64,000 nt of DNA. It comes from a phage. The stretch lies in NCBI GenBank assembly GCA_012646185.1, contig GCA_012646185.1_4706.1; one strand, 5' to 3'. Under the pieces are notes generated by a model. It saw only the letters and a list, made by a program, of their open reading frames with translations, was not told the origin of the DNA and searched no databases. Within the stretch, counting starts at the first letter, position 1. Each line of letters begins with the position of its first letter. Made by a program: the position numbers and the translations under genes. Of the stretch, positions 2,329 to 59,820 are shown piece by piece.

Positions 2329-2338
2329 GCGGCATAAA
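2329..2338 (-). promoter_or_regulatory. late-promoter-like motif TTTATGCCG (minus strand) directly after a hairpin
   Basis: Plus strand gcggcataaa adjacent to hairpin 2339-2363; one of five copies of this arrangement (also 10852, 14900, 37167, 59785). Confidence 0.45.
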
Positions 2339-2363
2339 CCCTCCCCGCCTTATGCAGGGAGGG
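2339..2363 (-). terminator. GC-rich hairpin between co-oriented genes
   Basis: ccctccc - 11-nt loop - gggaggg, between the CDS ending at 2379 and the CDS starting at 2296. Confidence 0.45.
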
Positions 2364-2378
2364 CAGCCATTAAATGGA

Positions 2379-3017
2379 TTAACCTAATTTACCACCGGCA
2401 ATGTTGGTGAAATCTTCGCCATCAGGAACTTGCAGTAGGATACGTGCCATGTCCCAGTTGGTTAATGTAATTGCTTTATCATCGATACTCAGTTCTGGTA
2501 GGTCGAGTTCATGATCATCAAACTCGTAGGAAATACTCCACGTTTCATCTGTTTTAGGATCGGTTATCAACACACCGTCTGTTACACGCATGTAGTCCGG
2601 ATGCAATTCATTACTGAATGTGCTGAACGGATCGGTGTAACATTCAGCATACCCCTCGATCTGCTGACGTTGCGCCTTCGTACGTAATTCAGGGCACGCC
2701 ATAATCAGTTGTCGAGATATGCCGTTTGCAGCACGGAAGTCTTCCACGGTGTTGCATGGCATAACCACATCGTCATGGAAGATGTTCTCCGATTGTCTCA
2801 ACAGCGTCTTACGGAGTTCAGCATAGTTTATCTGATTGAATGCGTCGAACGTTGCTAACGATTCAGCGTAAAAATGCTTTACGTGTTCGCTTGCACTGCC
2901 GAGGCTATTCATCAGCTTGTGGCCGTACTCCATAAAGCTTTTATCGAGACCGGAGGACATTTCTCCGAACCTCAGTGCACGATAACTGTCTCGTCCACCT
3001 GTAAATATTTGCGCCAT
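2379..3017 (-). CDS. hypothetical protein
   Basis: 212-aa ORF; ATG preceded by AGGAGG SD immediately after the stop of the upstream exon. Confidence 0.65.
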   Translation of the reverse strand: MAQIFTGGRDSYRALRFGEMSSGLDKSFMEYGHKLMNSLGSASEHVKHFYAESLATFDAFNQINYAELRKTLLRQSENIFHDDVVMPCNTVEDFRAANGISRQLIMACPELRTKAQRQQIEGYAECYTDPFSTFSNELHPDYMRVTDGVLITDPKTDETWSISYEFDDHELDLPELSIDDKAITLTNWDMARILLQVPDGEDFTNIAGGKLG

Positions 3018-3032
3018 TACAGGCGTCCTCCT

Positions 3033-3254
3033 TTAGCAATGGTTGTTAGTTGCTTCTATTTCATCAAGATACGGTTCTACGTCATCGCCCTCCACGAATT
3101 CGTTGAACCAACAGTCAATGGTAGAAATAACCGGTGACTGGTGTTCACATTTCTTAGATACCTTAAAAGGCACGTTATTATCCATCATACCGAGTTCGGG
3201 TCGAAAACGCCCGAAATGTTTCGCAGTCCAAATGTCTGGGACGATATGGTTGTT
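3033..3254 (-). CDS. exon 3 of beta-prime-like gene (73 codons + stop)
   Basis: Begins AAC AAC CAT ATC GTC CCA (NNHIVP, cf. E. coli QMAVHVP after DFDGD) immediately after an intron-terminal G at 3255; in frame with the micro-exon. Confidence 0.7.
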   Translation of the reverse strand, partial: NNHIVPDIWTAKHFGRFRPELGMMDNNVPFKVSKKCEHQSPVISTIDCWFNEFVEGDDVEPYLDEIEATNNHC

Positions 3255-5233
3255 CATCAAAATCTTCAGTATGAATCGCTACTTCATACCCGCAGCATTA
3301 CCTGCAGCTCCTGGTGTTACCAGGATGTTGAGAGTATATCATGCCCATATTCCAAATGGAACGTAGGACTTCCGCGCTGGATCTCGCTTGAGACCACTTA
3401 CTCGTTGAACGTTCTCCTAAACGGAGCTTCGCTGCTGATTGGACATTGTTACGTACGGTAGGCGTCCCATTAAAGGGATTTTCATTGAAGCCGCGTACAT
3501 CCGTTACCTTGTTTCTACCTTATCGGTTCCTCTTACGAGGCGTAACGGCTTTAGCCTATTCCAGCAATTCACGGAATGCATATTCTCCTTTTCAGGAGAT
3601 AAGGCCATGGCTCTGGCATCACCGTCAAAGTCCACATATCTTCAGTATGAATCGCTACTTCATACCCGCAGCATTACCTGCAGCTCCTGGTGTTACCAGG
3701 ACGGAGAGATCATCTCATCACCCACGAAGGGTGTTCCGCGCTACCCTCAGCGAATTCGAGGGACATGATCGTTGAACCTTCCACCGATAATCGGTGGCTA
3801 GGCTGCTGATTAAACATTGTACGTTGGGGTGGCATCCTGGTTCAGGACTGTCGTTGAAGCCTCCCAACATCCACTCACTTATTTCCGCCTTATCGGCTCC
3901 CATAAGGGCAGAGTGGCTTTAGCCCGTCTCAGCAATTCACGGAATTCAAGCTCTTCCTTTCAGAAGGCAGGGCCTCATCTGAAGCATTGTATCCCTTAAG
4001 GATCATCACGCTTAACCCGATGGTGTTATCCTGCGGATCGCGTTTAACCTTGGTGATTTCAAGACATTGGTTACTGCTTCGGTCAAGTGATGGGTTTCGA
4101 ACAAAGCCGCACACAATCCCATCGAACGGCGTATCAGCAATAAGCTCATCGTGCAGCTCGCTCATCATCGGATGATAATTACGGACATGTTCCGCAACGA
4201 ACGCACGCGCTGCTCTCGGTGAGTAACCACGATGGAATAACTTGGATTGGATATGTTCTTTATTGGTTAAAGTAAATGGTGCGTATGGGAAATGCAGATG
4301 ATAATAACGATGGTTCGCTGTTATCGAACTGATTACGGTACGCGTGGTGAATGGATGTAATGTACCTAATATGTTTTTACGTGTAATACCTTTCTTCTTA
4401 CCGATGAACTCATCGAAAATCGCTGCGTGGTATTGCAGTAGCTTCAATTGCACTTTCGCCATCCAGTTTTCTTTCTTTCTGGCGCTCAAAGGTGTTGTTG
4501 GATGATAGATACTGTTCAACGTACCAATAGCATCGATCGCACCTTCCATTTTGCTATCCGCATAACGACCGGTCGGCGTATTTTCGATAACGAACATCAT
4601 GGCTGCAGGAAAGCTGATATACTGACTGAAGAACTTATCACGATGGATACGGATGAATTCTCGTAGCGTGTCAACTTTCTCCATGTTCTTCGGTCCACGT
4701 AACGTCGGTCCTTTATACAAGATCTCCATGATGCGATCGAAGTTCTGTATAAAGCTATTTACGCCACGCCGTATCCCGAATACATCGAATTGCTGCTCCA
4801 GATAGTTCTTGAGTTCGATGGGTCGTTTTACATTTGGACGGTAACTGGCATCAATGAGCCACGTCATCGTTTCAAAGCTTTTGATATTCAACTCGCTTGC
4901 CAGCACGAGATGGACCAACGGGTTAATGAACGCATCGATTCCTTCAGGAACGCGCGCCCAAACCGTCGAACGAATCTCTTGTTCTGCTGGGTAGGTTACA
5001 ACCGTTTTACAGTTTGGACACACCGTGCCGAGTAGCTCACCACGATTGTAGAAACCACAACCACATTGTGGTGTGATATCCAACGTATCGCTGGAGTAAA
5101 CACGGGTGATAAAACTGTTTAATTTCTTCTTCTCTTCGACGACTTTTGTATCGTAATCATTCAACAAAATCGGCGTGAAAGGAAGTTCTGCGAGCTGTCT
5201 ATCGAAACTCACGATATCGAGCATGATGGCCAT
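3033..5233 (-). CDS. RNA polymerase beta-prime-like subunit, N-terminal fragment type (non-virion RNAP by synteny); gene interrupted by two group I introns
   Basis: Exon 1 carries a Cys4 zinc-ribbon (CGCG...CPNC), a match to the beta-prime GKRVDYSGRSVI region (RKNILGTLHPFTTRTVIS) and an NRAPTLH-like RNPSLD; the spliced product of exons 3983..5233 + 3618..3632 + 3033..3254 (495 aa) reads ...KGYNA-DFDGD-NNHIVPD..., restoring the universal NADFDGD Mg-binding motif; AGGAG SD before the ATG at 5233. Confidence 0.75.
3255..3617 (-). ncRNA. group I intron (no ORF), 3'-proximal member of a tandem pair
   Basis: On the minus strand, in canonical order: P-like GAAUUGCUGGAAU (plus 3561-3573), Q-like AAUCAGCAGC (plus 3431-3440), R-like GUUCAACGAGUAAG (plus 3397-3410), S-like GAUAUACUCU (plus 3331-3340) with P7 pairing GAGUA/UACUC; ends in G; preceding exon ends in U. 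Confidence 0.75.
3618..3632 (-). CDS. 15-nt micro-exon encoding D-F-D-G-D (catalytic aspartate triad)
   Basis: Minus strand GAC TTT GAC GGT GAT lies exactly between the two introns, in frame with exon 1 (ends ...TAC AAT GCT = YNA) and exon 3. Confidence 0.7.
3633..3982 (-). ncRNA. group I intron (no ORF), 5'-proximal member of a tandem pair
   Basis: P-like GAAUUGCUGAGA (plus 3928-3940), Q-like AAUCAGCAGCC (plus 3801-3811), R-like GGUUCAACGAUCAUG (plus 3764-3778), S-like GAUGAUCUCUC (plus 3704-3714) with P7 GAUCAU/AUGAUC; ends in G at 3633; exon 1 ends in U at 3983. Confidence 0.8.
3983..5233 (-). CDS. exon 1 of beta-prime-like gene (417 codons)
   Basis: ORF-track ORF 3929..5233 truncated at the 5' splice site; the 18 track codons after ...GYNA (SDEALPSERKSLNSVNC) are intron-encoded and overlap the intron P element. 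Confidence 0.7.
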
Positions 5234-5275
5234 GGGGTATCTCCTACAAATGAAAAAGAACGTTAGGACGTATAA

Positions 5276-5299
5276 GGGAGGGAGGTTGCCCTCCCTCCC
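5276..5299 (-). terminator. GC-rich hairpin after the shell-protein gene
   Basis: gggagggagg-ttg-cctccctccc, with a U-rich stretch ~15 nt downstream on the minus strand. Confidence 0.5.
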
Positions 5300-5325
5300 G
5301 TCAGATTACATCGAACGTTCTTCCA

Positions 5326-7221
5326 TTAGAACAGGTTGAATGCCCCACCCATGTTGTTAACGCCAACATTCGGACGATCGCTACGTGCGTAGATGTTACC
5401 GGAGATGTTACCCAGACCACGAGCACGTGCTGCCATGTTACCACGAACAGCGGTACCTGCCAGATGCTGGATGTTCTCAGGACGGATGGTGAAGCCAGCA
5501 TCAGCCGCAGCTTCGATCAGCGCCTGCAGTGCTAACGGATCGAAGTCGTAACGCATTGCCCAGCCGGTTTGTTCCCAGCTACCAGACAGAACACGATCGA
5601 TGATTTCGTGACGAGCGACAACACGCTGAGACATCGTCATATCGGTACGGTCGAAGCTGTCTTCCCAAGCTTCTACGGTATCCGGGTTAGTGATGTTCAT
5701 CATGTACAGATCGTCCATATCACGAATATCGTGACGGTGACCATCCTGGTGGTTGTAGTAACCCAGCGGGATACGGTTACCGGTAGCGTAGACCAGCGGT
5801 TGGCCGTATTGATATTTCTTGCTGAAGCAACCCAGGGTAGTATCATCGAAGGCACGGTAAAGTGCTTTGTAGCCTTCAGAGACTTCCTGAACTTTACCTT
5901 CAACATTACCCGTATAGATCTTCTCAGCCGCCGGGATCATACGCAGCAGCCAGCTGTATTCGCCTTCTTCCGGTACGTCGATAGAAATCAGCAGAGACGG
6001 ATACAGAACCTGTTGCAGGAACTTGTAAATCTGCTCGTTGGTTTGCGTAGACAGATCCAGCGGTGCAGTCACTTCAGGATCCAGCACCATCGCCAGAGCA
6101 CCTGGGTTATGCGGACCAATACCACGAGCCGCGTTGCTGATTAAAGACTGTGCCCATGCCATGCCGCTGTTCAGCGTAGCGATGGTACCAATCAGACCCA
6201 GCACGAAGCTGTTCGGTGTGAACGCATCCAGCTCCAGCGGGTAAGCGCTGGTCATCACGTAACGCGGCTGGTATTGTACAGTCGGCGGTACCGGATAGCC
6301 GTTAACCAGAACAGGGCCTTGGTTGAAGGTCGGGTTCTGCGGGCTGTAGGTCAGGTCGATGTAACCGGTGGTGGCGACCAGACGCTGTTGACTATCGTAA
6401 TCGCTCATCGCTTGACGGATGCGGTTAGAGATAGTTACAGTGATGTCAGAACGCACAGGGTTACCAACAATATCACTGTCCTGCATACCGCTGGTGTTGT
6501 ACTGAACGCTGCTGATTGGCTGATCGCTTGCCATCATGCCCAGGTTGAACTGCGGCAGACCCAGTTTATCACCGAGACGGATTTCGATTGCGGTCTGGAT
6601 TGCGTTATCTGCAGCAGACAGCAGGGTGGTTGCCAGATGCGCAGATTCAGCGGTGATTTCATTGGTCACCACAGCCAGACCAGCGATACGAACAGTACCG
6701 TTAGACTTACCGCCAATAGCTGAATACATTGCCGCCATGACTTCGTTGATGAACGTACCGTTCAGGTTATCAACCCAGGTACGCGGTACCAGAATGTTAC
6801 CATGCGGACCTTGTTCTTCACGACGCGGCAGCGGAGCCAGACCAGCAACCAGCGGCAGGACGTAACCGAAGAAGTGGTTATGATCACCAACTTTTGCACC
6901 GCTCATAACAACCAGGGTCGGATACGGTACGCTGTACTGGTTCGGGTCAACCGCAACAAAGATGAAGTCGTCTTTGAACTGGGTATCTTCCAGATATTTC
7001 TCCATCAGACGACGGAGATTCAGTACCTGCTCGGAGCCGGTATTACGGCTGATACGACGGCTCAGTGTACGGTTGATCGTACGCATCGTATGAGTTACTT
7101 TAGGACGGTCGGCAAAATCTGCAGCGGTTTCCAGCGCCTCATCAGCACGTTGTGCGGTGCGGGTTTCAGCTGCACGAATTTCTACATTATCGTTACCGTT
7201 ATTACGTACGTCTAAGCCCAT
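5326..7221 (-). CDS. chmA: chimallin-like phage nucleus shell protein (putative)
   Basis: 631-aa ORF, strong AAGAGGAA SD, codon usage typical of an abundant protein, early-promoter motif ~70 nt upstream, immediately upstream of a beta-prime-like RNAP gene as in phiKZ (gp54-gp55); identification rests on size and synteny, not on a catalytic motif. Confidence 0.55.
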   Translation of the reverse strand: MGLDVRNNGNDNVEIRAAETRTAQRADEALETAADFADRPKVTHTMRTINRTLSRRISRNTGSEQVLNLRRLMEKYLEDTQFKDDFIFVAVDPNQYSVPYPTLVVMSGAKVGDHNHFFGYVLPLVAGLAPLPRREEQGPHGNILVPRTWVDNLNGTFINEVMAAMYSAIGGKSNGTVRIAGLAVVTNEITAESAHLATTLLSAADNAIQTAIEIRLGDKLGLPQFNLGMMASDQPISSVQYNTSGMQDSDIVGNPVRSDITVTISNRIRQAMSDYDSQQRLVATTGYIDLTYSPQNPTFNQGPVLVNGYPVPPTVQYQPRYVMTSAYPLELDAFTPNSFVLGLIGTIATLNSGMAWAQSLISNAARGIGPHNPGALAMVLDPEVTAPLDLSTQTNEQIYKFLQQVLYPSLLISIDVPEEGEYSWLLRMIPAAEKIYTGNVEGKVQEVSEGYKALYRAFDDTTLGCFSKKYQYGQPLVYATGNRIPLGYYNHQDGHRHDIRDMDDLYMMNITNPDTVEAWEDSFDRTDMTMSQRVVARHEIIDRVLSGSWEQTGWAMRYDFDPLALQALIEAAADAGFTIRPENIQHLAGTAVRGNMAARARGLGNISGNIYARSDRPNVGVNNMGGAFNLF

Positions 7222-7285
7222 TTGGGATTCCTCTTTTCTTAAACTTTATTAAATGACGTCATTGAATCAGCTTCTACTCGCTCAT

Positions 7286-7320
7286 TCACCTAGGTAATAT
7301 AACCCTGAAATTTTTTTCAA
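7286..7320 (-). promoter_or_regulatory. phiKZ-type early promoter motif (GAAAAAAA...TATATTAC on minus strand)
   Basis: Plus strand ctaggtaatataaccctgaaatttttttc; ~70 nt upstream of the chimallin-like start codon. Confidence 0.6.
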
Positions 7321-7475
7321 TATTGGTGTAACCACATTGAACGATATAAACCCCCAGGCGAACGCTGCCGAGAAGCAACATTCTTTCTACATATAATCAG
7401 GATATGTCTGTAAACTTTTACTTCTCTTATTGAGAGTAATGTCATATCCGTTTACTACCTTCTTACGGAGTTCGT

Positions 7476-8570
7476 ATGTTTCGTGTTTTAAATAACCTCC
7501 CGCGAACATCATCGGGTGTGCAACCCGTCCCTCAGAAAGACTATCTAATACGCGAAGTTCAAAGAAACCTACAGACAATCCAGAACCACTATCAAGGTTT
7601 TACCTTCGCGGTTCAGAGCGATCACATCCTTGCGTTGCTGCTCGCACAGCTCCCTATGAGATACGACATCTCAGTACAAACTTACTACGACATGATTCTC
7701 GATCTTACCCCAGAATTGGGTAATCGTGTCAAGTTGACAACATCAAGATACGCGGGTAAGTTATTCGACGGTGCTTTCTATCCGGGATTGCACGAAGCTA
7801 TTATCGCAACCGGTGAAAGTCGTCTTATTTCACGTGACGTTCTTGACAACTGGCGTAATTGGTCACCAGTTAGAATCGTGACGCACCCATACGCAAATCT
7901 TCGTTACATTCCTCTTCACCGAAAGCAGGTTGAAGATGGGCGAGGTTTTGCAGTCATTATGGTTGACGTACCTTTATTAGCGCTACAGTATCGAATGTGG
8001 TCTTTGATCATGGGTCATAACGTCGACGGTAAATGGGTGGTTAAAGAACCGGTTACAAGCTTCCTTGCGAGTTTTCCGTTGGTTAACGCATTATACTCAC
8101 ACAACGATGTTGTTATACGTAATCGTTGTTTGTGGGTATCTCCGGCTAAGAATCCACTCAAATCACCCATTTACGTTAACGACCTTGATAACGTATTCAG
8201 CCAAGTCGTTCTGTCCGTACAGCATCATTTATTACGAAGAAGACGAAGCTACACCGATATGCTTAAACAGATACCGAGTTTATACGGAGATCAGTACCAA
8301 GCAACCCGAATGGGTTACACCGTCGATCTTCGACAAACACGATGGGCAAGGGATCTGGGTTGTCTGTCATTATGGCAACAACTCGTCACATTGCAAAACG
8401 TATCTGAAAGCGTCGGGTTCAGCAGTCAAATCGATAACGACCTGTACCGTGCTGCCGACCGGAGTCTAAAAGAAGGTAACTGGGAATCCTCTCCGTTACC
8501 TGGCGATTTAAGACGTGAAGTTATCGCACAGGTTGCCGACCTCTTAAAAATTCTTCCCGCTGGTGCATAA
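7476..8570 (+). CDS. hypothetical protein
   Basis: 364-aa ORF with ACGGAG SD; the only plus-strand gene in this neighbourhood; ends at a bidirectional terminator. Confidence 0.65.
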   Translation: MFRVLNNLPRTSSGVQPVPQKDYLIREVQRNLQTIQNHYQGFTFAVQSDHILALLLAQLPMRYDISVQTYYDMILDLTPELGNRVKLTTSRYAGKLFDGAFYPGLHEAIIATGESRLISRDVLDNWRNWSPVRIVTHPYANLRYIPLHRKQVEDGRGFAVIMVDVPLLALQYRMWSLIMGHNVDGKWVVKEPVTSFLASFPLVNALYSHNDVVIRNRCLWVSPAKNPLKSPIYVNDLDNVFSQVVLSVQHHLLRRRRSYTDMLKQIPSLYGDQYQATRMGYTVDLRQTRWARDLGCLSLWQQLVTLQNVSESVGFSSQIDNDLYRAADRSLKEGNWESSPLPGDLRREVIAQVADLLKILPAGA

Positions 8571-8590
8571 TCACCTCCCTCTTCCCTTGC

Positions 8591-8620
8591 ATCCTCCCAA
8601 CCCGTAAGGGAAGGGAGGAT
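8591..8620. terminator. bidirectional terminator hairpin with GNRA (GUAA) tetraloop, contains conserved 24-mer
   Basis: atcctccc-aa-ccc-gtaa-ggg-aa-gggaggat between convergent CDSs; the 24-mer ctcccaacccgtaagggaagggag (8594-8617) recurs in reverse orientation at 58655-58678. Confidence 0.6.
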
Positions 8621-8636
8621 GGGGTGGTGGATTATG

Positions 8637-10790: not shown

Positions 10791-10851
10791 AAATCCTCCA
10801 AAAGTTATTTAGTCTGTCTACATCATCTCGTATATCTGTTAAAAAAGAAGG

Positions 10852-10864
10852 ACGGCATAAAAAA
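10852..10864 (-). promoter_or_regulatory. late-promoter-like motif TTTTTTATGCCGT after hairpin
   Basis: Plus strand acggcataaaaaa adjacent to hairpin 10866-10893; ~65 nt upstream of the ATG at 10790. Confidence 0.5.
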
Positions 10865-10865
10865 G

Positions 10866-10893
10866 AACCGATCCAGCCGAAGCCAGATCGGTT
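10866..10893 (-). terminator. intrinsic terminator hairpin
   Basis: aaccgatc...gatcggtt inverted repeat followed on the minus strand by a U-tract. Confidence 0.5.
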
Positions 10894-11088
10894 AAAAAGG
10901 ATAATAACTGACAGAAAGATATCGATGATGTTCGTGAAACAAGATCTTCTCTCGTGTACAATGATGCTAGATCAGAGGGAGGTTGTAACACGAGAGGTGG
11001 TCCGCCAAAGAAGGAATAAAAACACGAACCTATCTTATTTCACTGATGGCACTAACCACTCAAAATATATAGTACTGTATGTAAAAGT

Positions 11089-11502: not shown

Positions 11503-11513
11503 AATAGCATCCT

Positions 11514-14475: not shown

Positions 14476-14566
14476 ACTCTTTTCCTAAGTCCCCATTGTT
14501 TATACACACGATATCTGGGAATAGTTAAAATATACGGCGTAAAACGAAGCAGGAGAGTTTCTGACG

Positions 14567-14887
14567 TCATTTTCTCCCTCTTCGAATACTACCGATACCT
14601 CTTTCGTCTAAGACGTCCCAGGCACGCTTTATTTCATCCTCCGTTGCTCTGGTATCTGGAGGGACAACCATAACACAGTCATGGAATGGCCAATGTGTAG
14701 GTCTGGGGTTAGCGAACAAATCATCCCATTCAAATGTCCATTCTTTCTTTGAGCGATTGTAGTAGAGCGTAAGGTACGTGTTGGTATACGCTGGATAACC
14801 ATGCATCACTTCAATATCCTTACGATCTTGCCGTTCCTGATTCCAATCGTTAAACCGCTTTCTTATTTTCTCCCACCACTTTCCCAT
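14567..14887 (-). CDS. hypothetical protein
   Basis: 106-aa ORF; TAGGAGAAAG SD; TTTTATGCCGT motif ~17 nt upstream. Confidence 0.6.
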   Translation of the reverse strand: MGKWWEKIRKRFNDWNQERQDRKDIEVMHGYPAYTNTYLTLYYNRSKKEWTFEWDDLFANPRPTHWPFHDCVMVVPPDTRATEDEIKRAWDVLDERGIGSIRRGRK

Positions 14888-14899: not shown

Positions 14900-14910
14900 A
14901 CGGCATAAAA
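14900..14910 (-). promoter_or_regulatory. late-promoter-like motif TTTTATGCCGT after hairpin
   Basis: Plus strand acggcataaaa adjacent to hairpin 14910-14931. Confidence 0.45.
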
Positions 14911-14931
14911 GCCTGCCCCGAAGGACAGGCT
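14910..14931 (-). terminator. hairpin (agcctg-10 nt-caggct)
   Basis: Inverted repeat between CDSs 14941..15141 and 14567..14887; no strong U-tract. Confidence 0.35.
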
Positions 14932-14940
14932 CGATAGAAC

Positions 14941-17066: not shown

Positions 17067-17593
17067 TTAACGACAGCTTCCTCCCTCGGAGTTTTCGAGG
17101 GAGGTATTTGCCGTTTGAACACTTTCAGCATGTTCGCAAAATCAGCAGCAATAATACAGGCCGAGGTTGATAGCTTATTACTGAAAATGAGATCGTCCGG
17201 TAAACAATCGAACTGAATACCGTATTGCGTCTTTGTCTCATCAACGATCAATGACGGTGTCGATCTTGTCTTCGCGATGTCGGTGATATACAAACGTAGA
17301 AATAATTCACCGTCTTCGCTATCCATAAAACGATAAGCGTTACCAGAAAACGCAACATGCGGCGTAACGATAAATTGAACACGATCGTCGGTCGGATGGA
17401 TATTTAACCAACGTTCGATATCATTACTACTCACATTTCGCATATTTACTACGGTAAAAGCAAATAGCGTATCGTGATGTTTGGAATAATGCAGCACGTA
17501 CGCCGCACCTTTCTTTTTGTGAATCCCTTCAATGTATTCTATTGTCGTATAGCCAGATTTATATAGCTTTACTTGCGGTTTATCACTCATCAT
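17057..17593 (-). CDS. hypothetical protein
   Basis: ORF track 17057..17674 trimmed to the ATG at 17593, which overlaps the upstream TGA stop (ATGA arrangement). Confidence 0.55.
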   Translation of the reverse strand: MMSDKPQVKLYKSGYTTIEYIEGIHKKKGAAYVLHYSKHHDTLFAFTVVNMRNVSSNDIERWLNIHPTDDRVQFIVTPHVAFSGNAYRFMDSEDGELFLRLYITDIAKTRSTPSLIVDETKTQYGIQFDCLPDDLIFSNKLSTSACIIAADFANMLKVFKRQIPPSKTPREEAVVNQK

Positions 17594-21951: not shown

Positions 21952-21975
21952 AAGGTAATGTAGGTTTATTTTAAT
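21952..21975 (-). promoter_or_regulatory. degenerate early-promoter-like motif (TACATTAC on minus strand)
   Basis: Plus strand gaaggtaatgtaggtttattttaatc resembles the site at 60951 (gaaggtaatatagtcctgttattttttt). Confidence 0.3.
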
Positions 21976-31401: not shown

Positions 31402-31461
31402 AGATAATTCCTTTATTACGGCATAGTAAGAAAACGGGTTACGCACACAGATTTAAGCATA

Positions 31462-36257: not shown

Positions 36258-36290
36258 TCAGTTAGGTAATATAGACCTCAACTTTTTTCC
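36258..36290 (-). promoter_or_regulatory. phiKZ-type early promoter motif (GAAAAAAG...TATATTAC on minus strand)
   Basis: Plus strand cagttaggtaatatagacctcaacttttttcc. Confidence 0.55.
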
Positions 36291-37166: not shown

Positions 37167-37178
37167 ACGGCATAAAAA
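37167..37178 (-). promoter_or_regulatory. late-promoter-like motif TTTTTATGCCGT after hairpin
   Basis: Plus strand acggcataaaaa adjacent to hairpin 37181-37208. Confidence 0.5.
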
Positions 37179-37180
37179 GT

Positions 37181-37208
37181 ACCTCCTTACCCACATGGGT
37201 AAGGAGGT
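37181..37208 (-). terminator. intrinsic terminator (12-bp perfect stem, 4-nt loop)
   Basis: acctccttaccc-acat-gggtaaggaggt followed on the minus strand by a U-rich stretch. Confidence 0.6.
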
Positions 37209-41523: not shown

Positions 41524-41549
41524 CGAGCAGGGGCATGAAGCCCCCTGCT
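41524..41549 (-). terminator. intrinsic terminator after RNAP beta-like gene
   Basis: gagcagggg - loop - cccctgctc, followed on the minus strand by UUUAUUUCG. Confidence 0.55.
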
Positions 41550-41550
41550 C

Positions 41551-46080: not shown

Positions 46081-49000
46081 CCTTGTCTTCGCCTCAGGTC
46101 GCTACGCTGAGACCGCCTGCATGGATACGTACATCACAGGCTGCTTGCACTTTCATGCAAGAGGAGACTATATCAAACCGGCAGCGCAACCTGCTACGGT
46201 AACCTACACTTCGAAGACGCTCGTCCTCTACAGGGTGGTAAATCCCTTAGTCGTTGAACCTGCGTTGTTTCACATTCTTGTTTGTAAGAATGTCGTATTA
46301 CTACGCAACAACCAGGCTGCTGATTGCCCATTGTTTCGCACCTTAGCACCGCTTACGCGGCTTTTCTTTCAGCCTAAGCCTCTTACGGAGGTAGTGCATC
46401 TCAACTGTTGTTTCTGCCTTTCGGCACCTCATGGGTCGTTGAGCTTTAGGGGTTCCCAGCATTTCGTAGGTTTTTCAAGCACTCCCTTTCGGGAATACCG
46501 GACTCATTATTAGCTTATTTATTCAAGTATCTGAAATCCCACTTATCTTTACGTCGTTTATCGCACTTGATGTCAGGATGATTAACACGATGCCTAATAG
46601 TTGTTGCCGATAGCTGGCTGAGATTCTCAGCAGATCGTGCGCCAAGAACAACGAGTTTTGTGTCGTCTGGACGCGTAACTTCTACTGCCCGATAATGCTT
46701 ACGTAACACATCACGCCAATATTCACGACGTTCTGGTTCAGCATACTCAAGCATGTAACCGTTAACATCTACTAAACCGTAGCTTTCGTTTAATCGAGAG
46801 GTAGCGGCTGGTTTACTAATACCGATTGCTTTAGCCGCATCGACCACGGTTTTATACGGGGTCTCATTACCGTCTCTATCTACAACCACAATGAAATCTG
46901 GACGTGAATCGAGTAGCTGCTGTCTGCGTTCGACGGCTTGTTGATGAAGCACCATGTTAACGTGTTCGAACCCGTAACCTTCTGGACCGTGCCACCCTGG
47001 ATTGTTATTCGCTCGATAAAGTACCGTCGCAGATTTCACTCCAGTCTGACGTGACGCCTCGTTTGCACTATGAACAACCGTGGTAGAGCCGTCAGGGTGA
47101 TATATCCGTATCTGGTTCATTATACCGGAACCAATGAAGTTACCATCAGCTGATTTAATATCCGGCCATGGTTGAGGATCATCTTTGAATTTAACCACCC
47201 AGCGGTTATTAAACAGTTTGACTTTTCGAACATGTTTGCCCATTGTCGTATCCGTAACACCTGCGACTACTGATGCCTGTGTGATACTCAGGTACTCAGT
47301 AACGGTATCGTTCCATGTATCCCAAAGCAGAACCGGTTTATTGTCGTCGCGTAAACCGTATTCGATGGCGTGTAGAACGTTACGACTTCTGGTCGCCCAT
47401 TCAAGATTATCGAGAGAGTAATTCCATTTGTCGGCATCGAGATGATTAACGTCCAACTTATCGACATTAGCCGGATATTCCCGCCACGCCAACATCAAGC
47501 AGCGATGCAGAACCTTAGTTCTCGTTACATCCCGACAATCATGACGTAGACTAATGAATACGTAATTATCCTTTTTCGGATACGATCTACATTCCTGACC
47601 GTCTTTGCGGCGAATAACTCGTCCTTTCTCATTTATCAGATAACGGGTGTGTCCAGGAATGACACGATAACCAGGGTACTTAGCGATTTCGTAAGCAGGC
47701 TCGAACCGATAGGATAAATTATCAACATCCCAGTTAGATTCGTCACCATCAACAAACATCGCTTTGACGTACTTCTGTGTTTCAATATCAACCAGGATGT
47801 TTTTGTGTGCGATACAAATCAATGCTGGGATATTGAATTCACGACCGGCTAAGATAACCATGTCGCCATTTCTCGGTATCACGACGTGGGTATCACGATA
47901 CCGTAAATTTCCATAGCCGTCTATTTCAATCCAGCTTAGAAACGGAATGGATATAAACTCTTTTTCAGATACTCGCCATTTAAACATCTTAATACCTATT
48001 TAATACTAAACATCATATTAATAGGTTTAAAAGTTAAAAATGACAGAAAATGGCTAAATTGAATCACCGCCTAAACCGGCGAGGTACGGGGCAGGAACAA
48101 TAGTAGTTTCTACGAATGATGCATTAGGTAACCAGTCGGGGTATTCCCATGCGATAAATCGTTCATCCGTTATTGGTTCCCAGTTACTATCCAGTTCGGT
48201 TTTCGGTTTTGCCGCAACGGTTGTACGTGCGTAACAGGTTAACGGGATAACGGATTGCATACCGGATACCGGATAACGTGTTACCATCGCAGCCAGGTTA
48301 TTCCAGTACTTATAACCAGCGATATAAATAAGCTCGGTGTAAGTAATGGGGTGAACATCCGCACCAGGCTTATTCAACATCTCCGGAGGTAATTCACTCA
48401 TACCACGGAATAACCGAAACGAATCATTGTTCACATAGACGAGGCAAAGATATCGTCCATTGACCATGATAGGCTCGTTACGCACGCCAGGATCGCTTAA
48501 GGTGTTCAGTAAACGTTCTATTCCGTCCCAGGTTGTAAAGTCATCGATGGTGTCTGGATCAAGCGTGACACGTTCACGTTCCATCGTTTCGGTATCAATA
48601 AGTTCAACTTCTGTAACGTCACGAACAAATATTTCCTGCAAAATACCGGTACGTAACGCATGTTGCGTTACTGGGAGAGCAGCTTTACTCATCTGGTATA
48701 ACCCTAACTGAACTGCGGTACAGGAAGGCTGGTTAGGCGACCCTAATACCTCCGTTGTGGGGTTAATTGCCGAAATAACGTTACGGGTTGAGTTCCAAAC
48801 GCGACGTGAACCAAACTTCCCTTGGAAGATCCCTTTCTTACCTTGGAACATATCCAACAACAAAGCGTAGATATCGTTAAACGTTCTCTGTAAGCTCCAG
48901 CGTTGGCCGTCGTAAACGGGATCGGAATAATCTTTTAATCCATCAGGGACGGTGTTAGAAATTGCAAGGAAACGACGATACAACTCCGTGATTTCTTGCT

Positions 49001-49529: not shown

Positions 49530-49591
49530 GGAGACACTCCTCTTTACCACCACCGGCTGCGGCGGTATCATCTGAACACACGAGAGACGTA

Positions 49592-49637
49592 ATGGGTGAT
49601 GGCGTCACCCATCGCTTCCTTGCTTGAGGCGAGGAAG
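49592..49637. promoter_or_regulatory. two adjacent hairpins in divergent intergenic region
   Basis: atgggtga-tggcg-tcacccat (49592-49612) and cttcct..aggaag (49615-49637) between the divergently transcribed RNAP and giant tail-protein genes. Confidence 0.3.
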
Positions 49638-49774
49638 TTACTAGGTTACGTACCTGCCTGATTTTATCAGGTGGGCGATGTGTGAAGTTATGCTTCAACA
49701 TTATCAATGCCGAAGGTAAACTTCGTGCATCACGTTCCAACGTAACATGGGAACGTATCGAACTGGAGGTATAC

Positions 49775-56440: not shown

Positions 56441-56452
56441 TCATTAGTTAAG

Positions 56453-56471
56453 GGCGGGAGATTCCCGCCCT
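56453..56471 (+). terminator. GC-rich hairpin (8-bp stem) after giant gene
   Basis: gggcggga-gat-tcccgccc followed by tcttctt; may act as an attenuator since the next gene is co-oriented. Confidence 0.45.
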
Positions 56472-56489
56472 CTTCTTGAGGAATGTTAC

Positions 56490-58634
56490 ATGGGTATTCT
56501 TGTTCAAAACGCCCTAATCACCAAACAGGCATTTTTATTACCGGGCGATAGCAGCACGCTGAGTGCCGACATGATTAAAGCGAGACATACACCGTATTCC
56601 TACGATAACGTCGATGATACCACCTTAGGTGGGAACTGGGTGCTTAACCCGCCGCCGCAATATACAAAATTTGCCGACATCAAAGAACGCCGACGTGCGG
56701 TTATGCCGGGATCAACGGGTATGGGTCGAGGCTATAGTGAAAGCATTAACAGCTTTAAAGAAGTCGTTACGTTACGATTCGGTAAACCTCGCTTTACAGG
56801 CGCAAGTATCTTCTTTACTGATTTCTACGATGCGGATGTTGCCGTAACGGTTAAAACCGGTCGCGATCCCGGTATTCTTTATTACGCGGCCAAAGCGTAT
56901 ACCACCGTTCTTTCTTACCTCACACCGCTACCTTACTTGTATATGGTTGGACGTATCGGTCGATATTTCCTGGGTAAGCCAACCAGTCAATATTACTATC
57001 AAGTACCAACCATGCATGTGTATTGGGCGTCTTTCCAGACGTTGGTAAACCAAACAGCGATAAACATGGGTCTTATCGCCGGTGCCGGTAAAGATAAAGG
57101 CTACGTGGAAGAAGGAGGTACCGTACTCCACCAATATTCAATCGGTGGTCAGAACGTTGAAGAATTCATCAACTACGCCTCTAAGACGCTACCGGGGATT
57201 TATAAGAAAGGTGGTGGGATCGATATCTACCAGATTGCAACACGTCGTCAGCGCATACAGAACGCATGGGTACGTCGTATTCAATCCATGATGGAAAACG
57301 ATTACTCGTCTTACGAGGAGTTCTGGAACGATCTTGATAAACGACTTGATAGTGGAGCATTTCCATCGGATGTAACCGGTCGTACGTTAACGCAGTATCT
57401 CGCCGATGTGCAGAAATCTAAAGTTTATAGCGTCGAAAACAAAGGCGATAATAAACAAACAATGGACGACCTTTTATTCGGAAGGGCCACATACACCAAC
57501 AAGGATGCTGATGCCAACTTCAATGTCTCAGCGGCTACCTCCGACGGTGGTACGTCAACACAGAGTCAGGGCACAACAGCCAATGTCGGTAATTCGACGT
57601 CAGGGACAACGCAGGCTTCAACAGCAGCATCGACGGCTGGAGGAGCGAACGTACAGAGCAAAGGAATCGGTCAAACAAATGCGGCCGAGGAAGCTAAGTT
57701 TCTTGATCTGATGGATGCTGAACTGGCCGATGGCGCTCAGTTTATCAGTTTTCGAGTCGACTCTGTCACCAGTGTAACCGAAACGTTTTCAAACAGTGCT
57801 TCAGAAAGTTCAATCGCGCAGACGATGAACAGTCGTGCGCAAGCGAACATCGAACGTCGTTTCACCCTTTCCGGTGGTAATACAGGTTGGGCTATATTGG
57901 ACGAAGCCATCAAAGCCGGTTCCGATCTCGTTAATGGTGCTATTTCCGGGATGGGCCTGGATGGTATTTTTGGTGCCTTCATGGGTTCCGGCTTCGCTGA
58001 CATTCCGAAATTCTATTCCGGATCATCGGTAAGTCTTCCACGCGCAGATCTAACGATGGAATTGCGTTCTTGGAGTGGGGACCGCTGGTCGATCTTTACG
58101 AACCTCATGGTACCTCTTTTAGCGATCCTTGCAGGTGGTTTACCTCAGGCTACCGGTAAATCGTCCTACGGGATGCCATTCATGTGTGAGTGTTATATTC
58201 CCGGTAAAGTTCAGATTAAAATGGGCCTTATCGACAACATCACTGTGACGCGTCATGTTGGAAACGTACCATCGACACGCGAGCGATTACCGTTGGGTAT
58301 CGACGTCAGCTTCAGCGTTTATGACCTGTCGTCCATCGTCGCCATGCCGATCACAACGACGGCCGCATCGATCGCAAAACTGGATCCTCGCGGCTTCTTA
58401 AGTGATCTTCTTGCTGACGATACGCCGCTCAACAACTATCTTGCTGTATTATCGGCATTGACACTTACGGAACAAGTTTACATGATTCCGGATTTAAGTC
58501 GTCGCATGCATAAAACCATGGCTGATATCGATAGTTTCTGGAGCAAAGGTAATTTTGCTAGCTGGTTGTCTGACACCATGCCTGGCAGGATAGCATCAGG
58601 GCTGTTATGGAAACGTACAGAACGACCGTTCTGA
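56490..58634 (+). CDS. hypothetical virion protein (714 aa)
   Basis: Long ORF with GAGGAA SD, co-oriented with the giant tail-protein gene. Confidence 0.7.
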   Translation: MGILVQNALITKQAFLLPGDSSTLSADMIKARHTPYSYDNVDDTTLGGNWVLNPPPQYTKFADIKERRRAVMPGSTGMGRGYSESINSFKEVVTLRFGKPRFTGASIFFTDFYDADVAVTVKTGRDPGILYYAAKAYTTVLSYLTPLPYLYMVGRIGRYFLGKPTSQYYYQVPTMHVYWASFQTLVNQTAINMGLIAGAGKDKGYVEEGGTVLHQYSIGGQNVEEFINYASKTLPGIYKKGGGIDIYQIATRRQRIQNAWVRRIQSMMENDYSSYEEFWNDLDKRLDSGAFPSDVTGRTLTQYLADVQKSKVYSVENKGDNKQTMDDLLFGRATYTNKDADANFNVSAATSDGGTSTQSQGTTANVGNSTSGTTQASTAASTAGGANVQSKGIGQTNAAEEAKFLDLMDAELADGAQFISFRVDSVTSVTETFSNSASESSIAQTMNSRAQANIERRFTLSGGNTGWAILDEAIKAGSDLVNGAISGMGLDGIFGAFMGSGFADIPKFYSGSSVSLPRADLTMELRSWSGDRWSIFTNLMVPLLAILAGGLPQATGKSSYGMPFMCECYIPGKVQIKMGLIDNITVTRHVGNVPSTRERLPLGIDVSFSVYDLSSIVAMPITTTAASIAKLDPRGFLSDLLADDTPLNNYLAVLSALTLTEQVYMIPDLSRRMHKTMADIDSFWSKGNFASWLSDTMPGRIASGLLWKRTERPF

Positions 58635-58650
58635 TATTCACTGCATAAAC

Positions 58651-58682
58651 CCCTCTCCCTTCCCTTACGGGTTGGGAGAGGG
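58651..58682. terminator. bidirectional terminator hairpin containing the conserved 24-mer in reverse orientation
   Basis: ccctctccc-ttcccttacgggtt-gggagaggg; 58655-58678 is the reverse complement of 8594-8617. Confidence 0.6.
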
Positions 58683-58688
58683 ATTATG

Positions 58689-59756
58689 TTAACCTAATGA
58701 CACCGTCGGTAAATCAGGATAAAGTTTCTTCAAACCCGCCATCGTGGTGGTAGTTGTATAATTCTTACCCATCGCAGCAAGAGATGCGTATTTCCTACTG
58801 CGGGAGAAAAGAGAATAGAACCCACTGGATGTTTCCATCCACATCGTGAGGAGTTCCGCATCATTACCGTGGTAGTTCGTTTTACCCCATCCAGGTTTAA
58901 ACGCATCGGCAAAATCAATTAAACGCGAGGCTTCAGCGTCGTATTCTTTAAGGGTAATGTACGATGGAATGCGGTAGTTACGAAACAGTAACGTAATGAG
59001 TTCAGGGACAACGCTACGGGCACGTTCGGCAGTAATGAGTTCGGTGATCACAGCAGCCGTACGGAAATCGCCGTTGAGGCCAACGCTGCTTAACGATTCC
59101 GCTAAAGTGGTCGCCATCGCCACTTTATCCTCCGCTGACCCAGAGTCATACAGACTACGCACATCGATGTAGTTGCCTGCTAATGCAGCTTGACGAATCA
59201 ACGACGTGACAACCGTCCGGTTCGTCTTATAGTCGTTGTAACTGAATTCGGTTCGCGTTTTCCCTTGATCGTCGAGATACCGATCGACAATCGTTGAAAG
59301 TTTATAATACTCATCGCCCGACATCAGACTATCGAGAAGCTTAACGTTTCCATCTTTATCAATAAGCTTCCCTAACGCGCCATTGGATTGCTGGTTAATG
59401 GTACTGTAAATCTGGTCTTTTACTTGCGATAGGATGTTATCGGTTGACGATATATTCAGGCCAGTAACATCTTTGATCTTATTCATCAACGCGTTTTCAT
59501 TCAGGGAGATTTTGCCTCCGCTGATATCGATGAAAGAATTAAGATCGCTTATGGAAATCAGGTTTCCTGTTAACGCCGATAATGTACTATTGATACTGTT
59601 CGTAATACTGCTACGAAAACTGGTTAACGCATCAGCCGCTGAAACAGCGGTACCGCTAACCGCTTTAAGGAGCGTATCACGCCCTGTCGAAAAATCGCTG
59701 GTAATGGTTTTGATCTTGGACGTATCTATACTCGGCAGTTTGTCGTAAAGACTCAT
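58689..59756 (-). CDS. hypothetical protein
   Basis: ORF track 58689..59807 trimmed to the ATG at 59756 (AGGAGG SD); the track's N-terminal extension is encoded by the terminator hairpin and TTTATGCCGT motif. Confidence 0.6.
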   Translation of the reverse strand: MSLYDKLPSIDTSKIKTITSDFSTGRDTLLKAVSGTAVSAADALTSFRSSITNSINSTLSALTGNLISISDLNSFIDISGGKISLNENALMNKIKDVTGLNISSTDNILSQVKDQIYSTINQQSNGALGKLIDKDGNVKLLDSLMSGDEYYKLSTIVDRYLDDQGKTRTEFSYNDYKTNRTVVTSLIRQAALAGNYIDVRSLYDSGSAEDKVAMATTLAESLSSVGLNGDFRTAAVITELITAERARSVVPELITLLFRNYRIPSYITLKEYDAEASRLIDFADAFKPGWGKTNYHGNDAELLTMWMETSSGFYSLFSRSRKYASLAAMGKNYTTTTTMAGLKKLYPDLPTVSLG

Positions 59757-59784
59757 CACGTCCTCCTGAAAAAGAAAAAAGAAA

Positions 59785-59794
59785 TACGGCATAA
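59785..59794 (-). promoter_or_regulatory. late-promoter-like motif TTTATGCCGT after hairpin
   Basis: Plus strand acggcataaa adjacent to hairpin 59795-59820; ~30 nt upstream of the ATG at 59756. Confidence 0.5.
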
Positions 59795-59820
59795 AGCCTA
59801 CCCACACAATGGTGGGTAGG
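59795..59820 (-). terminator. intrinsic terminator (10-bp stem) with U-tract
   Basis: gcctacccac-acaatg-gtgggtaggc followed on the minus strand by UUUCUUUUUUCUUUUU. Confidence 0.6.

What the first reader, a model, noticed from the sequence alone, without database searches (positions are those of the whole stretch)
2329..59820. Five minus-strand terminator hairpins are each followed immediately by the 10-mer TTTATGCCGT, a candidate late-promoter/TSS motif
Plus strand ACGGCATAAA sits directly 5' of GC-rich hairpins at 2329-2363, 10852-10893, 14900-14931, 37167-37208 and 59785-59820. On the minus strand each reads hairpin, then 0-2 nt, then TTT(T)ATGCCG(T/C), and lies about 17-90 nt upstream of a start codon. 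Conservation of CCGT beyond the U-tract is more than a terminator needs, and the motif contains TATG, the short consensus reported for phiKZ late promoters. These look like compact terminator-promoter cassettes. They also explain why several ORF-track proteins begin with junk N-termini (MPHAILK..., MWVGFMPYFFF...), since the ATG inside the motif opens the frame.
Basis: partly seen in the sequence, partly recalled or inferred. Interest (0 to 1): 0.7.

Follow-up and report, generated by a model that had tools for sequence, protein, structure and literature searches.

The report
Jumbo-phage terminators with TATGCCGT tail
The five hairpins followed by TTTATGCCGT in this Goslar-like jumbo phage are local copies of a transcription-stop signal already mapped in phiKZ-type phages, not a new promoter class, although the tail does contain the four bases at which the phage's own RNA polymerase normally starts.

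Summary
Four exact ACGGCATAAA and one GCGGCATAAA lie on the + strand (0.17 expected by chance), and on the minus strand each directly follows a stable GC hairpin. The window is about 96% identical to E. coli phage Goslar, a nucleus-forming jumbo phage. Hairpin + TTAT-G-YY-GT is the conserved terminator motif published for phiKZ (61 mapped 3' ends) and 201phi2-1. I also find it in Goslar genome-wide and in Klebsiella, Erwinia and Xanthomonas relatives. In Goslar, TATG follows sense-strand hairpins even between convergent genes, where no promoter is needed (15/21). None of the 149 mapped phiKZ start sites lies at a hairpin-abutting TATG; starts lie 5-45 nt further on, at separate promoters. Published Goslar RNA-seq shows a gain of late expression downstream at only 2 of 10 early-context TATGC[C/T]G junctions. 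The "late promoter" reading is therefore not supported as a rule. It remains open at site 59786 (early gp201 to late gp202, where the tail's TATG is the only one in the gap) and possibly at 10852. The link between tail and promoter is still worth noting: phiKZ RNA 3' ends fall at the G of TATG plus or minus a few nt, the register in which late transcripts start, and TATG is strongly avoided inside Goslar genes. This is a new member of a known kind.

The parts
2329..2364 (-). Terminator between gp184-like and gp183-like genes: hairpin 2364-2338 plus tail TTTATGCCGC (2338-2329)
   Evidence: (-26.5 kcal/mol). Both flanking genes are early. Read density across the site: control (NT) ratio 0.65, ChmA-knockdown (KD) ratio 1.01.
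10852..10893 (-). Terminator upstream of the DNA polymerase gene: hairpin 10893-10866, CTTT, then TTTATGCCGT (10861-10852)
   Evidence: Annotated as a terminator in Goslar. KD read density falls to 0.34 across the site, NT stays at 0.92. Relative L012 carries TATGCTGT here. RTH11 has a hairpin + TTATGCCGT at the homologous junction.
14900..14932 (-). Terminator between gp235-like and gp236-like genes: hairpin 14932-14909 plus TTTATGCCGT (14909-14900), 12 nt before the start codon
   Evidence: Annotated as a terminator in Goslar. Both flanking genes are early, with no drop in knockdown reads.
37167..37208 (-). Terminator between the head protease (gp212-like) and gp213-like genes: hairpin 37208-37181, ACTT, then TTTATGCCGT (37176-37167)
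   Evidence: Both flanking genes are late, and NT read density rises 1.5-fold across the site. A second TATG lies 35 nt before the start codon.
59786..59822 (-). Terminator separating the early gp200-201 unit from late gp202: hairpin 59822-59795 plus TTTATGCCGT (59795-59786), 29 nt before the start codon
   Evidence: Knockdown read density drops to 0.03 of the upstream level, and gp202 is expressed only at the nucleus stage. The tail's TATG is the only TATG in the 83-nt gap.
58640..58692 (.). Bidirectional terminator between convergent gp203 and gp202: one hairpin with a TATG tail on both strands (minus TTTATGCAGT, plus ATTATGTTAACC)
   Evidence: It shows a TATG tail where no co-oriented gene follows.
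17080..17114 (+). Plus-strand terminator after the gp233-like gene: hairpin plus degenerate tail TATTTGCCGT
5266..5299 (-). Terminator between the nuclear shell gene and the nvRNAP beta gene: hairpin plus tail TTATACGTCC (degenerate version)
41525..41550 (.). Hairpin after the vRNAP beta gene with T-rich TTTAT tails on both strands (minus GTTTATTTCGC, plus TTATTTGGCGTC); annotated as a terminator in Goslar
31418..31425 (-). TATGCCGT without a hairpin, in a divergent gap 17 nt before the first gene of the strictly late gp219-223 operon; the best candidate for a true late promoter carrying the same 8-mer
   Evidence: expression class
60955..60962 (-). Core (TATATTAC) of the early vRNAP-type promoter driving gp200-201. 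Other copies have cores at 36266-36273, 7294-7301 and 1473-1480, with a variant at 21955-21962. This motif is distinct from the terminator tail.
   Evidence: PWM hits coincide with late-to-early switches in the RNA-seq.

Best explanation
The five elements are factor-independent transcription terminators of the type conserved in nucleus-forming jumbo phages (Chimalliviridae). Each is a GC-rich RNA hairpin followed by a short interrupted U-tract (UUUAU) and then G-Y-Y-G-U. They partition the minus-strand gene arrays into transcription units. The conserved bases after the U-tract belong to the stop signal: they lie 5-9 nt past the stem, which is where the RNA 3' end forms. Shown: the motif identity with mapped phiKZ and 201phi2-1 terminators, the link to hairpins rather than to gene starts, and the family-wide conservation. 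Inferred: that the TATG (and YYGT) works by pausing the phage polymerase. In phiKZ the beta-like subunit GP123 holds non-template T-3 A-2 T-1 G+1 in a pocket at promoters. The same contact, made when an elongating enzyme reaches TATG just after the hairpin emerges, would hold it long enough for the hairpin to release the transcript despite the weak U-tract.
For: (1) Putzeys et al. report that 61 phiKZ terminators mapped by ONT-cappable-seq share BCCYCCCCHWWDGGGRRGGBYTTATKYYGT. 201phi2-1 has the same motif (n = 59), and eight of its terminators were validated in vivo. The window elements match this motif base for base. (2) In 14 phiKZ terminators the nominal 3' end lies -4 to +3 nt (median +1) from the G of TATG. 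(3) In Goslar, TATG lies within -4..+10 nt of strong sense-strand hairpins at 27/55 tandem and 15/21 convergent junctions, against 4/36 on the antisense strand and a 5-8% background. 79 of 169 intergenic TATGs are hairpin-associated, and TATGC[CT]G tails also occur at convergent ends (6/26 vs 15/38, p = 0.19). (4) Bidirectional terminators carry the tail on both strands in phiKZ (T051/52, T059/60, T070/71) and in the window (58640-58692). (5) The same tails occur in Klebsiella phage Eowyn, Erwinia phage Ea35-70 and Xanthomonas phage RTH11, whose shell proteins are only 24-30% identical to Goslar's. (6) Published Goslar RNA-seq shows early transcription falling to 3% across site 59786 and to 34% across site 10852. 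(7) The only motif substitution among close relatives is C to T within YY. (8) Precedent for the inferred mechanism: the E. coli beta CRE pocket reads non-template bases at the start site and also stimulates hairpin-dependent pausing and intrinsic termination. (9) TATG is the second most depleted tetramer inside Goslar genes (O/E 0.69), as expected for a polymerase signal.
Against: No RNA 3'-end map exists for Goslar or for this phage. Per-gene read densities do not fall across sites 2329 and 14900 in the knockdown (ratios 1.0-1.2), so those two hairpins may be leaky, or compensated by unknown initiation. Density rises 1.5-fold across site 37167. The pause mechanism is pure inference, and none of the papers I read tests or mentions it. 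A hairpin-less TATGCCGT precedes a strictly late operon, so the 8-mer is not exclusive to terminators.
Confidence: 0.75

Rival explanations
1. Terminator-promoter cassette. The G of the tail's TATG is a start site for the non-virion RNA polymerase, so transcription stops at the hairpin and restarts in the same place, giving the downstream gene its own late or middle transcript.
For: TATG with the start at G is the phiKZ late-promoter core, and all four bases are required in vitro. At site 59786 the upstream genes are early (log2FC +0.6) and gp202 is late (-3.5), and the tail holds the only TATG in the 83-nt gap. At site 10852 the nucleus-dependent share rises (NT/KD 2.1 to 5.6) with no other TATG between hairpin and gene. 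At site 37167 read density rises 1.5-fold. Three sites leave only 12-33 nt to the start codon, too little for a separate upstream-element promoter. TATGCCGT without a hairpin sits 17 nt before the late gp219 operon. phiKZ 3' ends and late 5' ends share the same register on TATG.
Against: By my reading, 0 of 149 mapped phiKZ TSSs lie at a hairpin-abutting TATG, although at least 61 such motifs exist and the method recovered about half of the known early promoters. TSSs lie 5-45 nt downstream at separate promoters, for example P001, P017, P023, P049, P054 and P075. TATG tails are at least as frequent where no co-oriented gene follows. In Goslar, 8 of 10 early-context TATGC[CT]G junctions show no gain of late expression, including exact TTTATGCCGT at gp143->gp142 and gp235->gp236. 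TATG alone is not sufficient for phiKZ nvRNAP. The late level of gp202 (about 1.5 reads/nt) is similar to the nucleus-stage excess on gp200-201, so read-through of late transcripts is an alternative. Several late units have no TATG upstream, so other late promoter types exist. At the homologous phiKZ polymerase junction the validated TSS is about 30 nt past the tail.
Confidence: 0.2
2. The tail acts at the RNA level in read-through transcripts, for example as a processing site, a stability element or a 5'-UTR element for the downstream gene, rather than on the polymerase.
For: [quoted passage not shown] In two sites the tail can extend the hairpin by pairing with upstream bases. The tails are somewhat more CYG-rich in tandem than in convergent contexts (about 60% vs 29% for strong hairpins).
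Against: In phiKZ the RNA 3' ends fall at or just after the G, so YYGT is mostly absent from terminated RNA. The context bias is weak (p = 0.19 overall). The spacing to start codons is highly variable, from 12 to more than 200 nt. No Rfam family matches.
Confidence: 0.04
3. The elements are copies of a small repeated or mobile DNA element (REP/MITE-like), and the 10-mer is conserved by common descent rather than by function.
For: Some hairpins recur nearly identically: GAGCCTGTCCTTCGGGGCAGGCTT at two Goslar loci, and the CCTCCTTCCCTTACGGGTTGGAGGAGG family at eight or more loci.
Against: The five window hairpins have unrelated stem sequences but the same tail. The tail is conserved in phages whose proteins are only about 24% identical. 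Strand and position always follow gene ends.
Confidence: 0.01

Closest known systems
Conserved intrinsic terminator motif of phiKZ (Putzeys et al. 2024, microLife; PMC10914365) and motif A of 201phi2-1 (PMC11512511)
   Same: A GC-rich stem-loop (often CCCTCCC/GGGAGGG) followed by TTAT, then G/T, two pyrimidines, then GT. It lies downstream of gene ends on the sense strand, is bidirectional at convergent genes, and occurs in a phage with two multisubunit RNAPs.
   Different: The host and lineage differ (an E. coli phage whose shell protein is about 24% identical). YY is mostly CC or CT here, against T-rich in phiKZ. Several window stems are not of the CCCTCCC type. No 3'-end mapping exists for this phage.
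phiKZ nvRNAP late promoter, T-3 A-2 T-1 G+1 (Ceyssens 2014; Yakunina 2015, PMC4666361; GP123 pocket structure, PMC12809450)
   Same: The tail contains the exact tetranucleotide. TATG is avoided inside genes. TATG or TATGCCGT precedes several late units in Goslar.
   Different: Characterised late promoters such as p119L have no upstream hairpin and no YYGT at +2..+5. Mapped phiKZ TSSs do not coincide with terminator tails. Two of the five window sites precede early genes.
Canonical bacterial intrinsic terminator (hairpin plus a 7-9 nt U-tract)
   Same: A stable GC hairpin, a T-rich 3' flank, and RNA release 7-9 nt past the stem. 201phi2-1 versions also terminate host RNAP in vivo.
   Different: The U-tract is short and interrupted (UUUAU). 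It is followed by conserved non-U bases (G-YY-GU), which canonical terminators do not require.
E. coli core recognition element (CRE) pocket and hairpin-dependent or consensus pausing (PMC4499132)
   Same: A beta-subunit pocket reads non-template bases at the start site, and the same contacts modulate hairpin-dependent pausing and intrinsic termination. The pause consensus has a pyrimidine at the RNA 3' end and G as the next base.
   Different: This is an analogy only. The phage pocket (GP123 beta-lobe) is structurally distinct, and its role in elongation has not been tested.

Membership tests
Chimallivirus conserved intrinsic terminator (phiKZ / 201phi2-1 motif) | GC-rich stem-loop predicted to fold stably in the transcript | tested here: met
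   Energies of -18 to -26.5 kcal/mol, and 0 of 200 shuffles fold as well
Chimallivirus conserved intrinsic terminator (phiKZ / 201phi2-1 motif) | TTAT within 0-4 nt of the stem, followed by K-Y-Y-G-T | tested here: met
   TTTATGCCGT four times and TTTATGCCGC once, compared with BYTTATKYYGT
Chimallivirus conserved intrinsic terminator (phiKZ / 201phi2-1 motif) | Located after gene 3' ends on the sense strand, including at convergent gene pairs | tested here: met
   All five sites are intergenic and sense. Genome-wide: 42/76 sense hairpins vs 4/36 antisense. Bidirectional example at 58640-58692.
Chimallivirus conserved intrinsic terminator (phiKZ / 201phi2-1 motif) | RNA 3' ends accumulate at the motif | tested here: inconclusive
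   No 3'-end data exist for Goslar. Per-gene RNA-seq shows drops at 59786 (to 3%) and 10852 (to 34%) but none at 2329 or 14900.
Chimallivirus conserved intrinsic terminator (phiKZ / 201phi2-1 motif) | The genome encodes phiKZ-type virion and non-virion multisubunit RNAPs | tested here: met
   RNAP beta-like genes, nuclear shell and PhuZ are annotated in the matching Goslar region
phiKZ-type nvRNAP late promoter | TATG tetranucleotide | tested here: met
   Present in all five tails
phiKZ-type nvRNAP late promoter | Transcription starts at the G of TATG | not testable with these tools
   No TSS map exists for Goslar. In phiKZ, 0 of 149 TSSs fall at hairpin-abutting TATGs (my reading).
phiKZ-type nvRNAP late promoter | Precedes late (nucleus-stage) genes | tested here: not met
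   Downstream genes: gp183 and gp236 early, gp244 intermediate, gp213 and gp202 late. Only 2 of 10 early-context junctions gain late expression.
phiKZ-type nvRNAP late promoter | Tied to a downstream co-oriented gene | tested here: not met
   TATG tails occur at 15/21 convergent junctions. Full TATGCCGT tails with no downstream co-oriented gene occur at Goslar +4184, +156189 and +237279.
Chimallivirus early (vRNAP) promoter | AT-rich conserved block of about 30 nt with core TATATTAC centred near -10 | tested here: not met
   The PWM finds 4 sites plus 1 variant in the window, none at or next to the five tails
Canonical bacterial intrinsic terminator | An uninterrupted U-tract of about 7-9 nt after the hairpin | tested here: not met
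   The tails read TTTAT-G (3-6 T's, then A, T, G, C); only site 10852 has a longer T run

The most novel reading that the evidence does not exclude
The tail is a polymerase-recognition element shared by starts and stops. The phage RNAP pocket that reads non-template TATG to choose a late start site would also read TATG(CYGT) during elongation, 5-7 nt after a hairpin, and so pause and terminate. At some junctions (gp201/gp202, perhaps the DNA polymerase gene) the enzyme, or a new one, would restart at the same G. That would give a true stop-and-restart cassette that switches a gene from early to late control within about 40 nt.
Probability: 0.2. Interest if true: 0.7.

Novelty: new member of a known kind. 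Interest (0 to 1): 0.3.

Why it matters
For annotation, these sites should be labelled as terminators of the conserved chimallivirus type, and start codons placed inside them (for example Goslar gp183) should be corrected. For biology, the result extends a terminator motif known from two Pseudomonas phages to E. coli, Klebsiella, Erwinia and Xanthomonas phages whose proteins are only about 24-30% identical. This implies recognition by the conserved phage polymerases rather than by host factors. It also raises a point that none of the papers I read addresses. The stop signal embeds the 4-base late start signal in the same register, and how phiKZ-type polymerases gain specificity from only four bases remains an open problem. 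Testing whether TATG-YYGT pauses or restarts the enzyme would bear directly on that problem.

Tried and rejected
(1) I first concluded that the C[CT]G extension was restricted to sites with a co-oriented downstream gene (18/27 vs about 0/15). Folding-based hairpin calls then recovered convergent examples, and the bias became weak (15/38 vs 6/26, p = 0.19), so I withdrew this as evidence for a promoter. (2) I tested the early-promoter hypothesis for the tail. Goslar's early promoter is a distinct motif with core TATATTAC, and none lies near the five sites even at a relaxed PWM threshold. (3) I tested whether hairpin-less TATGs are enriched upstream of late versus early genes. They are not significantly enriched (17/65 vs 19/96, p = 0.34), but the test is weak because most genes are internal to operons. 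(4) I searched for relatives at intermediate divergence to test covariation. Viral contigs yielded only 98-100% identical relatives, and their alignment showed a single C-to-T change in the motif. (5) Rfam finds no family at the sites. (6) Per-gene RNA-seq could not resolve termination versus re-initiation at single sites, and the five junctions behave differently from one another. (7) The supplement of the published Putzeys paper is not held, so I used the preprint supplement instead. (8) A crude regex count of tails in relatives under-counts, because my hairpin finder extends stems into the TTAT. I therefore rely on the listed examples, not on those counts.
Full report
OBSERVATION. The plus-strand 10-mer ACGGCATAAA occurs exactly at 10852, 14900, 37167 and 59786, and with one mismatch (GCGGCATAAA) at 2329. 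Four exact matches compare with 0.17 expected, and none of 100 dinucleotide-preserving shuffles reaches four. Read on the minus strand, each copy is TTTATGCCG(T/C) and lies 0-4 nt after a GC-rich hairpin. The hairpins fold at -18 to -26.5 kcal/mol, and no shuffle out of 200 folds as well. ORF 1499-2335 opens at the ATG inside the motif, ORF 58689-59807 opens inside the hairpin, and Goslar's RefSeq gp183 is annotated from that same ATG.

SOURCE AND CONTEXT. The window matches Escherichia phage vB_EcoM_Goslar, a nucleus-forming jumbo phage, at about 96-98% identity over Goslar coordinates about 164.6-229.7 kb. It encodes the nuclear shell protein, PhuZ, DNA polymerase, terminase, structural proteins and subunits of both phage RNA polymerases. 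Two of the five hairpins are already annotated as putative terminators in Goslar. I assembled the full Goslar genome and its 247 CDS for genome-wide tests.

WHAT THE MOTIF IS. Putzeys et al. (2024) mapped phiKZ RNA ends by ONT-cappable-seq. They report that 61 intrinsic terminators share 5'-BCCYCCCCHWWDGGGRRGGBYTTATKYYGT-3', a stem-loop followed by TTAT and then K-YY-GT. The 201phi2-1 study found the same motif (n = 59) and validated eight terminators in vivo. In the preprint's Table S4, 14 motif terminators have their nominal 3' end -4 to +3 nt (median +1) from the G of TATG. The conserved bases therefore lie in the termination zone, not beyond it. Bidirectional phiKZ terminators between convergent genes carry TTATGYYGT on both strands.

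GENOME-WIDE BEHAVIOUR IN GOSLAR. The exact 10-mer occurs eight times. Seven copies are intergenic and directly after hairpins, and one is antisense inside a gene. TATG lies within -4..+10 nt of strong sense-strand intergenic hairpins at 27/55 tandem junctions and 15/21 convergent junctions. The figures for controls are 4/36 for antisense hairpins, 0/11 in divergent gaps and a 5-8% background. With folding-based calls, 79 of 169 intergenic TATGs are hairpin-associated. The TATGC[CT]G form also occurs where no co-oriented gene follows, at +4184, +27780, +72024, +93479, +156189 and +237279. The counts are 15/38 tandem against 6/26 convergent (p = 0.19). The tail is therefore tied to the hairpin, not to a downstream gene. 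The window has its own bidirectional example at 58640-58692.

CONSERVATION. Goslar's shell protein is only 24-30% identical to that of any other chimallivirus. Even so, Klebsiella phage Eowyn, Erwinia phage Ea35-70 and Xanthomonas phage RTH11 show hairpins followed by (T)TATGCCG(T/C/G). RTH11 has hairpin + TTATGCCGT about 60 nt upstream of its DNA polymerase gene, which mirrors window site 10852. Among near-identical Goslar relatives, the only change in the motif is TATGCCGT to TATGCTGT, a pyrimidine swap within the YY positions.

IS THE TAIL A PROMOTER? Several points favour it. TATG with the start at G is the phiKZ nvRNAP late-promoter core, and it is necessary but not sufficient in vitro. 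TATG is the second most depleted tetramer in Goslar genes (O/E 0.69, z about -17), whereas TATC, TATT and TTAT are not depleted. A hairpin-less TATGCCGT sits 17 nt before the strictly late gp219-223 operon. Published Goslar RNA-seq compares a ChmA knockdown, which leaves only early transcription, with a control. It places an early-to-late switch exactly across site 59786: gp201 is at +0.6 and gp202 at -3.5, and knockdown read density falls to 3%. The tail's TATG is the only one in that 83-nt gap. Site 10852 shows a partial gain of nucleus-stage expression, and site 37167 a 1.5-fold rise.

Other points count against it. By my reading of all 149 phiKZ TSS entries, none lies at a hairpin-abutting TATG. 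Terminator tails appear 5-45 nt upstream of TSSs that belong to separate early, middle or late promoters (P001, P006, P016, P017, P023, P041, P049, P054, P075, P099, P139, P143). The method recovered about half of the known early promoters, so about 30 hits would be expected if the tails were ordinary late promoters. The model promoter p119L has no hairpin and no YYGT. In Goslar, 14 early-context hairpin + TATG junctions have a median log2FC shift of +0.07. Of the 10 with TATGC[CT]G, only gp244 and gp202 gain late expression, and exact TTTATGCCGT at gp143->gp142 and gp235->gp236 does not. Two of the five window sites precede early genes. The late level of gp202 is similar to the nucleus-stage excess on gp200-201, so read-through of late transcripts is an alternative. 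Several late units have no TATG upstream at all. At the phiKZ junction homologous to site 10852, the primer-extension-validated middle-promoter TSS (P023) lies about 30 nt past the tail.

OTHER PROMOTERS. The top 8-mer enriched upstream of Goslar genes is TATATTAC, the core of a block of about 30 nt (GAAAAAAATTTCAGGGT-TATATTAC-CTAGGTGA) that closely resembles the phiKZ early promoter. A PWM finds 12-13 sites in Goslar. Every variant hit coincides with a late-to-early switch in the RNA-seq, which validates the expression classes. The window has four of these sites plus one variant, and none is at the five tails. As in phiKZ, terminator tails are often followed by such promoters. One example is the site after the major capsid gene. 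The layout 'terminator, then promoter' is therefore real, but the promoter is a separate element.

MECHANISM. Shown: these are hairpin + TTATG-YYGT elements of the mapped terminator family. They are located and oriented as terminators, and two of them coincide with strong drops in early transcription. Inferred: the conserved G-YY-G acts on the polymerase. [quoted passage not shown] An elongating enzyme that meets TATG 5-7 nt after a hairpin could therefore be held by the same contact and terminate despite a weak U-tract. E. coli offers a precedent: the beta CRE pocket reads start-site non-template bases and also stimulates hairpin-dependent pausing and intrinsic termination. This is a hypothesis, and none of the papers I read links the terminator tail to the late-promoter core.

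VERDICT. The elements are a new member (a Goslar-lineage E. coli phage) of a known kind, the conserved chimallivirus terminator motif. The promoter interpretation is not supported as a general property. It remains possible at site 59786 and perhaps at 10852. Two behaviours stay unexplained: the absence of any read drop at sites 2329 and 14900, and the 'promoter-proximal early' signature of gp183 and gp236.

Noticed in passing
window minus strand, cores at 1473-1480, 7294-7301, 36266-36273, 60955-60962; variant at 21955-21962: A conserved early (vRNAP-type) promoter block of about 30 nt with core TATATTAC, nearly the same as the phiKZ early promoter. One copy precedes the nuclear-shell gene. 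Across Goslar, the PWM hits coincide with late-to-early switches in published RNA-seq.
   Followed up: yes
window 3262-3983: The window replaces Goslar's 1.5 kb HNH-endonuclease plus group I intron segment (Goslar 168165-169660) with 406 nt. It also carries a tandem duplication of about 370 nt (3262-3606 and 3638-3974, 76-93% identical) that overlaps the 3' end of the nvRNAP beta ORF. This may be a footprint of intron or homing-endonuclease gain or loss.
   Followed up: partly
window 46144-46530 (-): A group I intron (Rfam RF00028, 56 bits) lies between the gp206-like gene and the vRNAP beta gene, as annotated in Goslar (gs002).
   Followed up: no
window 2293-2335; Goslar NC_048170 gp183 (166088-166924): The RefSeq start codon of Goslar gp183 is the ATG inside the terminator tail. 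The likely true start is the ATG at window 2295-2293, preceded by GAGGA.
   Followed up: partly
Goslar genome-wide (loci L001-L007): TATG is the second most depleted of all 256 tetramers on the sense strand of genes relative to synonymous-codon shuffles (O/E 0.69). Its antisense form CATA is also depleted (O/E 0.74). TATC, TATT and TTAT are not depleted.
   Followed up: yes
window 37181-37208 vs Goslar 202851-202882: The hairpin loop is inverted between the two phages (CCCATGTGGG vs CCCACATGGG) while the stem is unchanged.
   Followed up: no
window 8585-8627 and 58651-58682; Goslar 27744, 48141, 61005, 71988, 93443, 224379, 237243 and others: A near-identical hairpin family (CCTCCTTCCCTTACGGGTTGGAGGAGG) recurs at eight or more loci, mostly as bidirectional terminators. 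The hairpin at window 14909-14932 is identical to one at Goslar 3506-3529 on the other strand.
   Followed up: partly
Goslar record ends (L003 1-60; L007 7240-7307): The Goslar record begins and ends with the same sequence, GTTATGCCGTCAAGC followed by a poly-A run, and at the right end this follows a terminator hairpin. It looks like a short terminal repeat built on a terminator.
   Followed up: no
window 49572-49681 (divergent gap between gp205-like and gp204-like late genes): Neither strand has a TATG within 130 nt upstream of these strictly late genes. The same holds for gp189, gp192 and gp199 in Goslar. A second late or middle promoter type must therefore exist.
   Followed up: no
window 1499-2295 (gp183-like) and 14567-14887 (gp236-like): Both genes show the RNA-seq signature of promoter-proximal early genes (log2FC about +1, NT/KD 1.3). 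Yet each sits 12-33 nt behind a strong hairpin, has no recognisable early promoter, and shows no read drop across the hairpin.
   Followed up: partly
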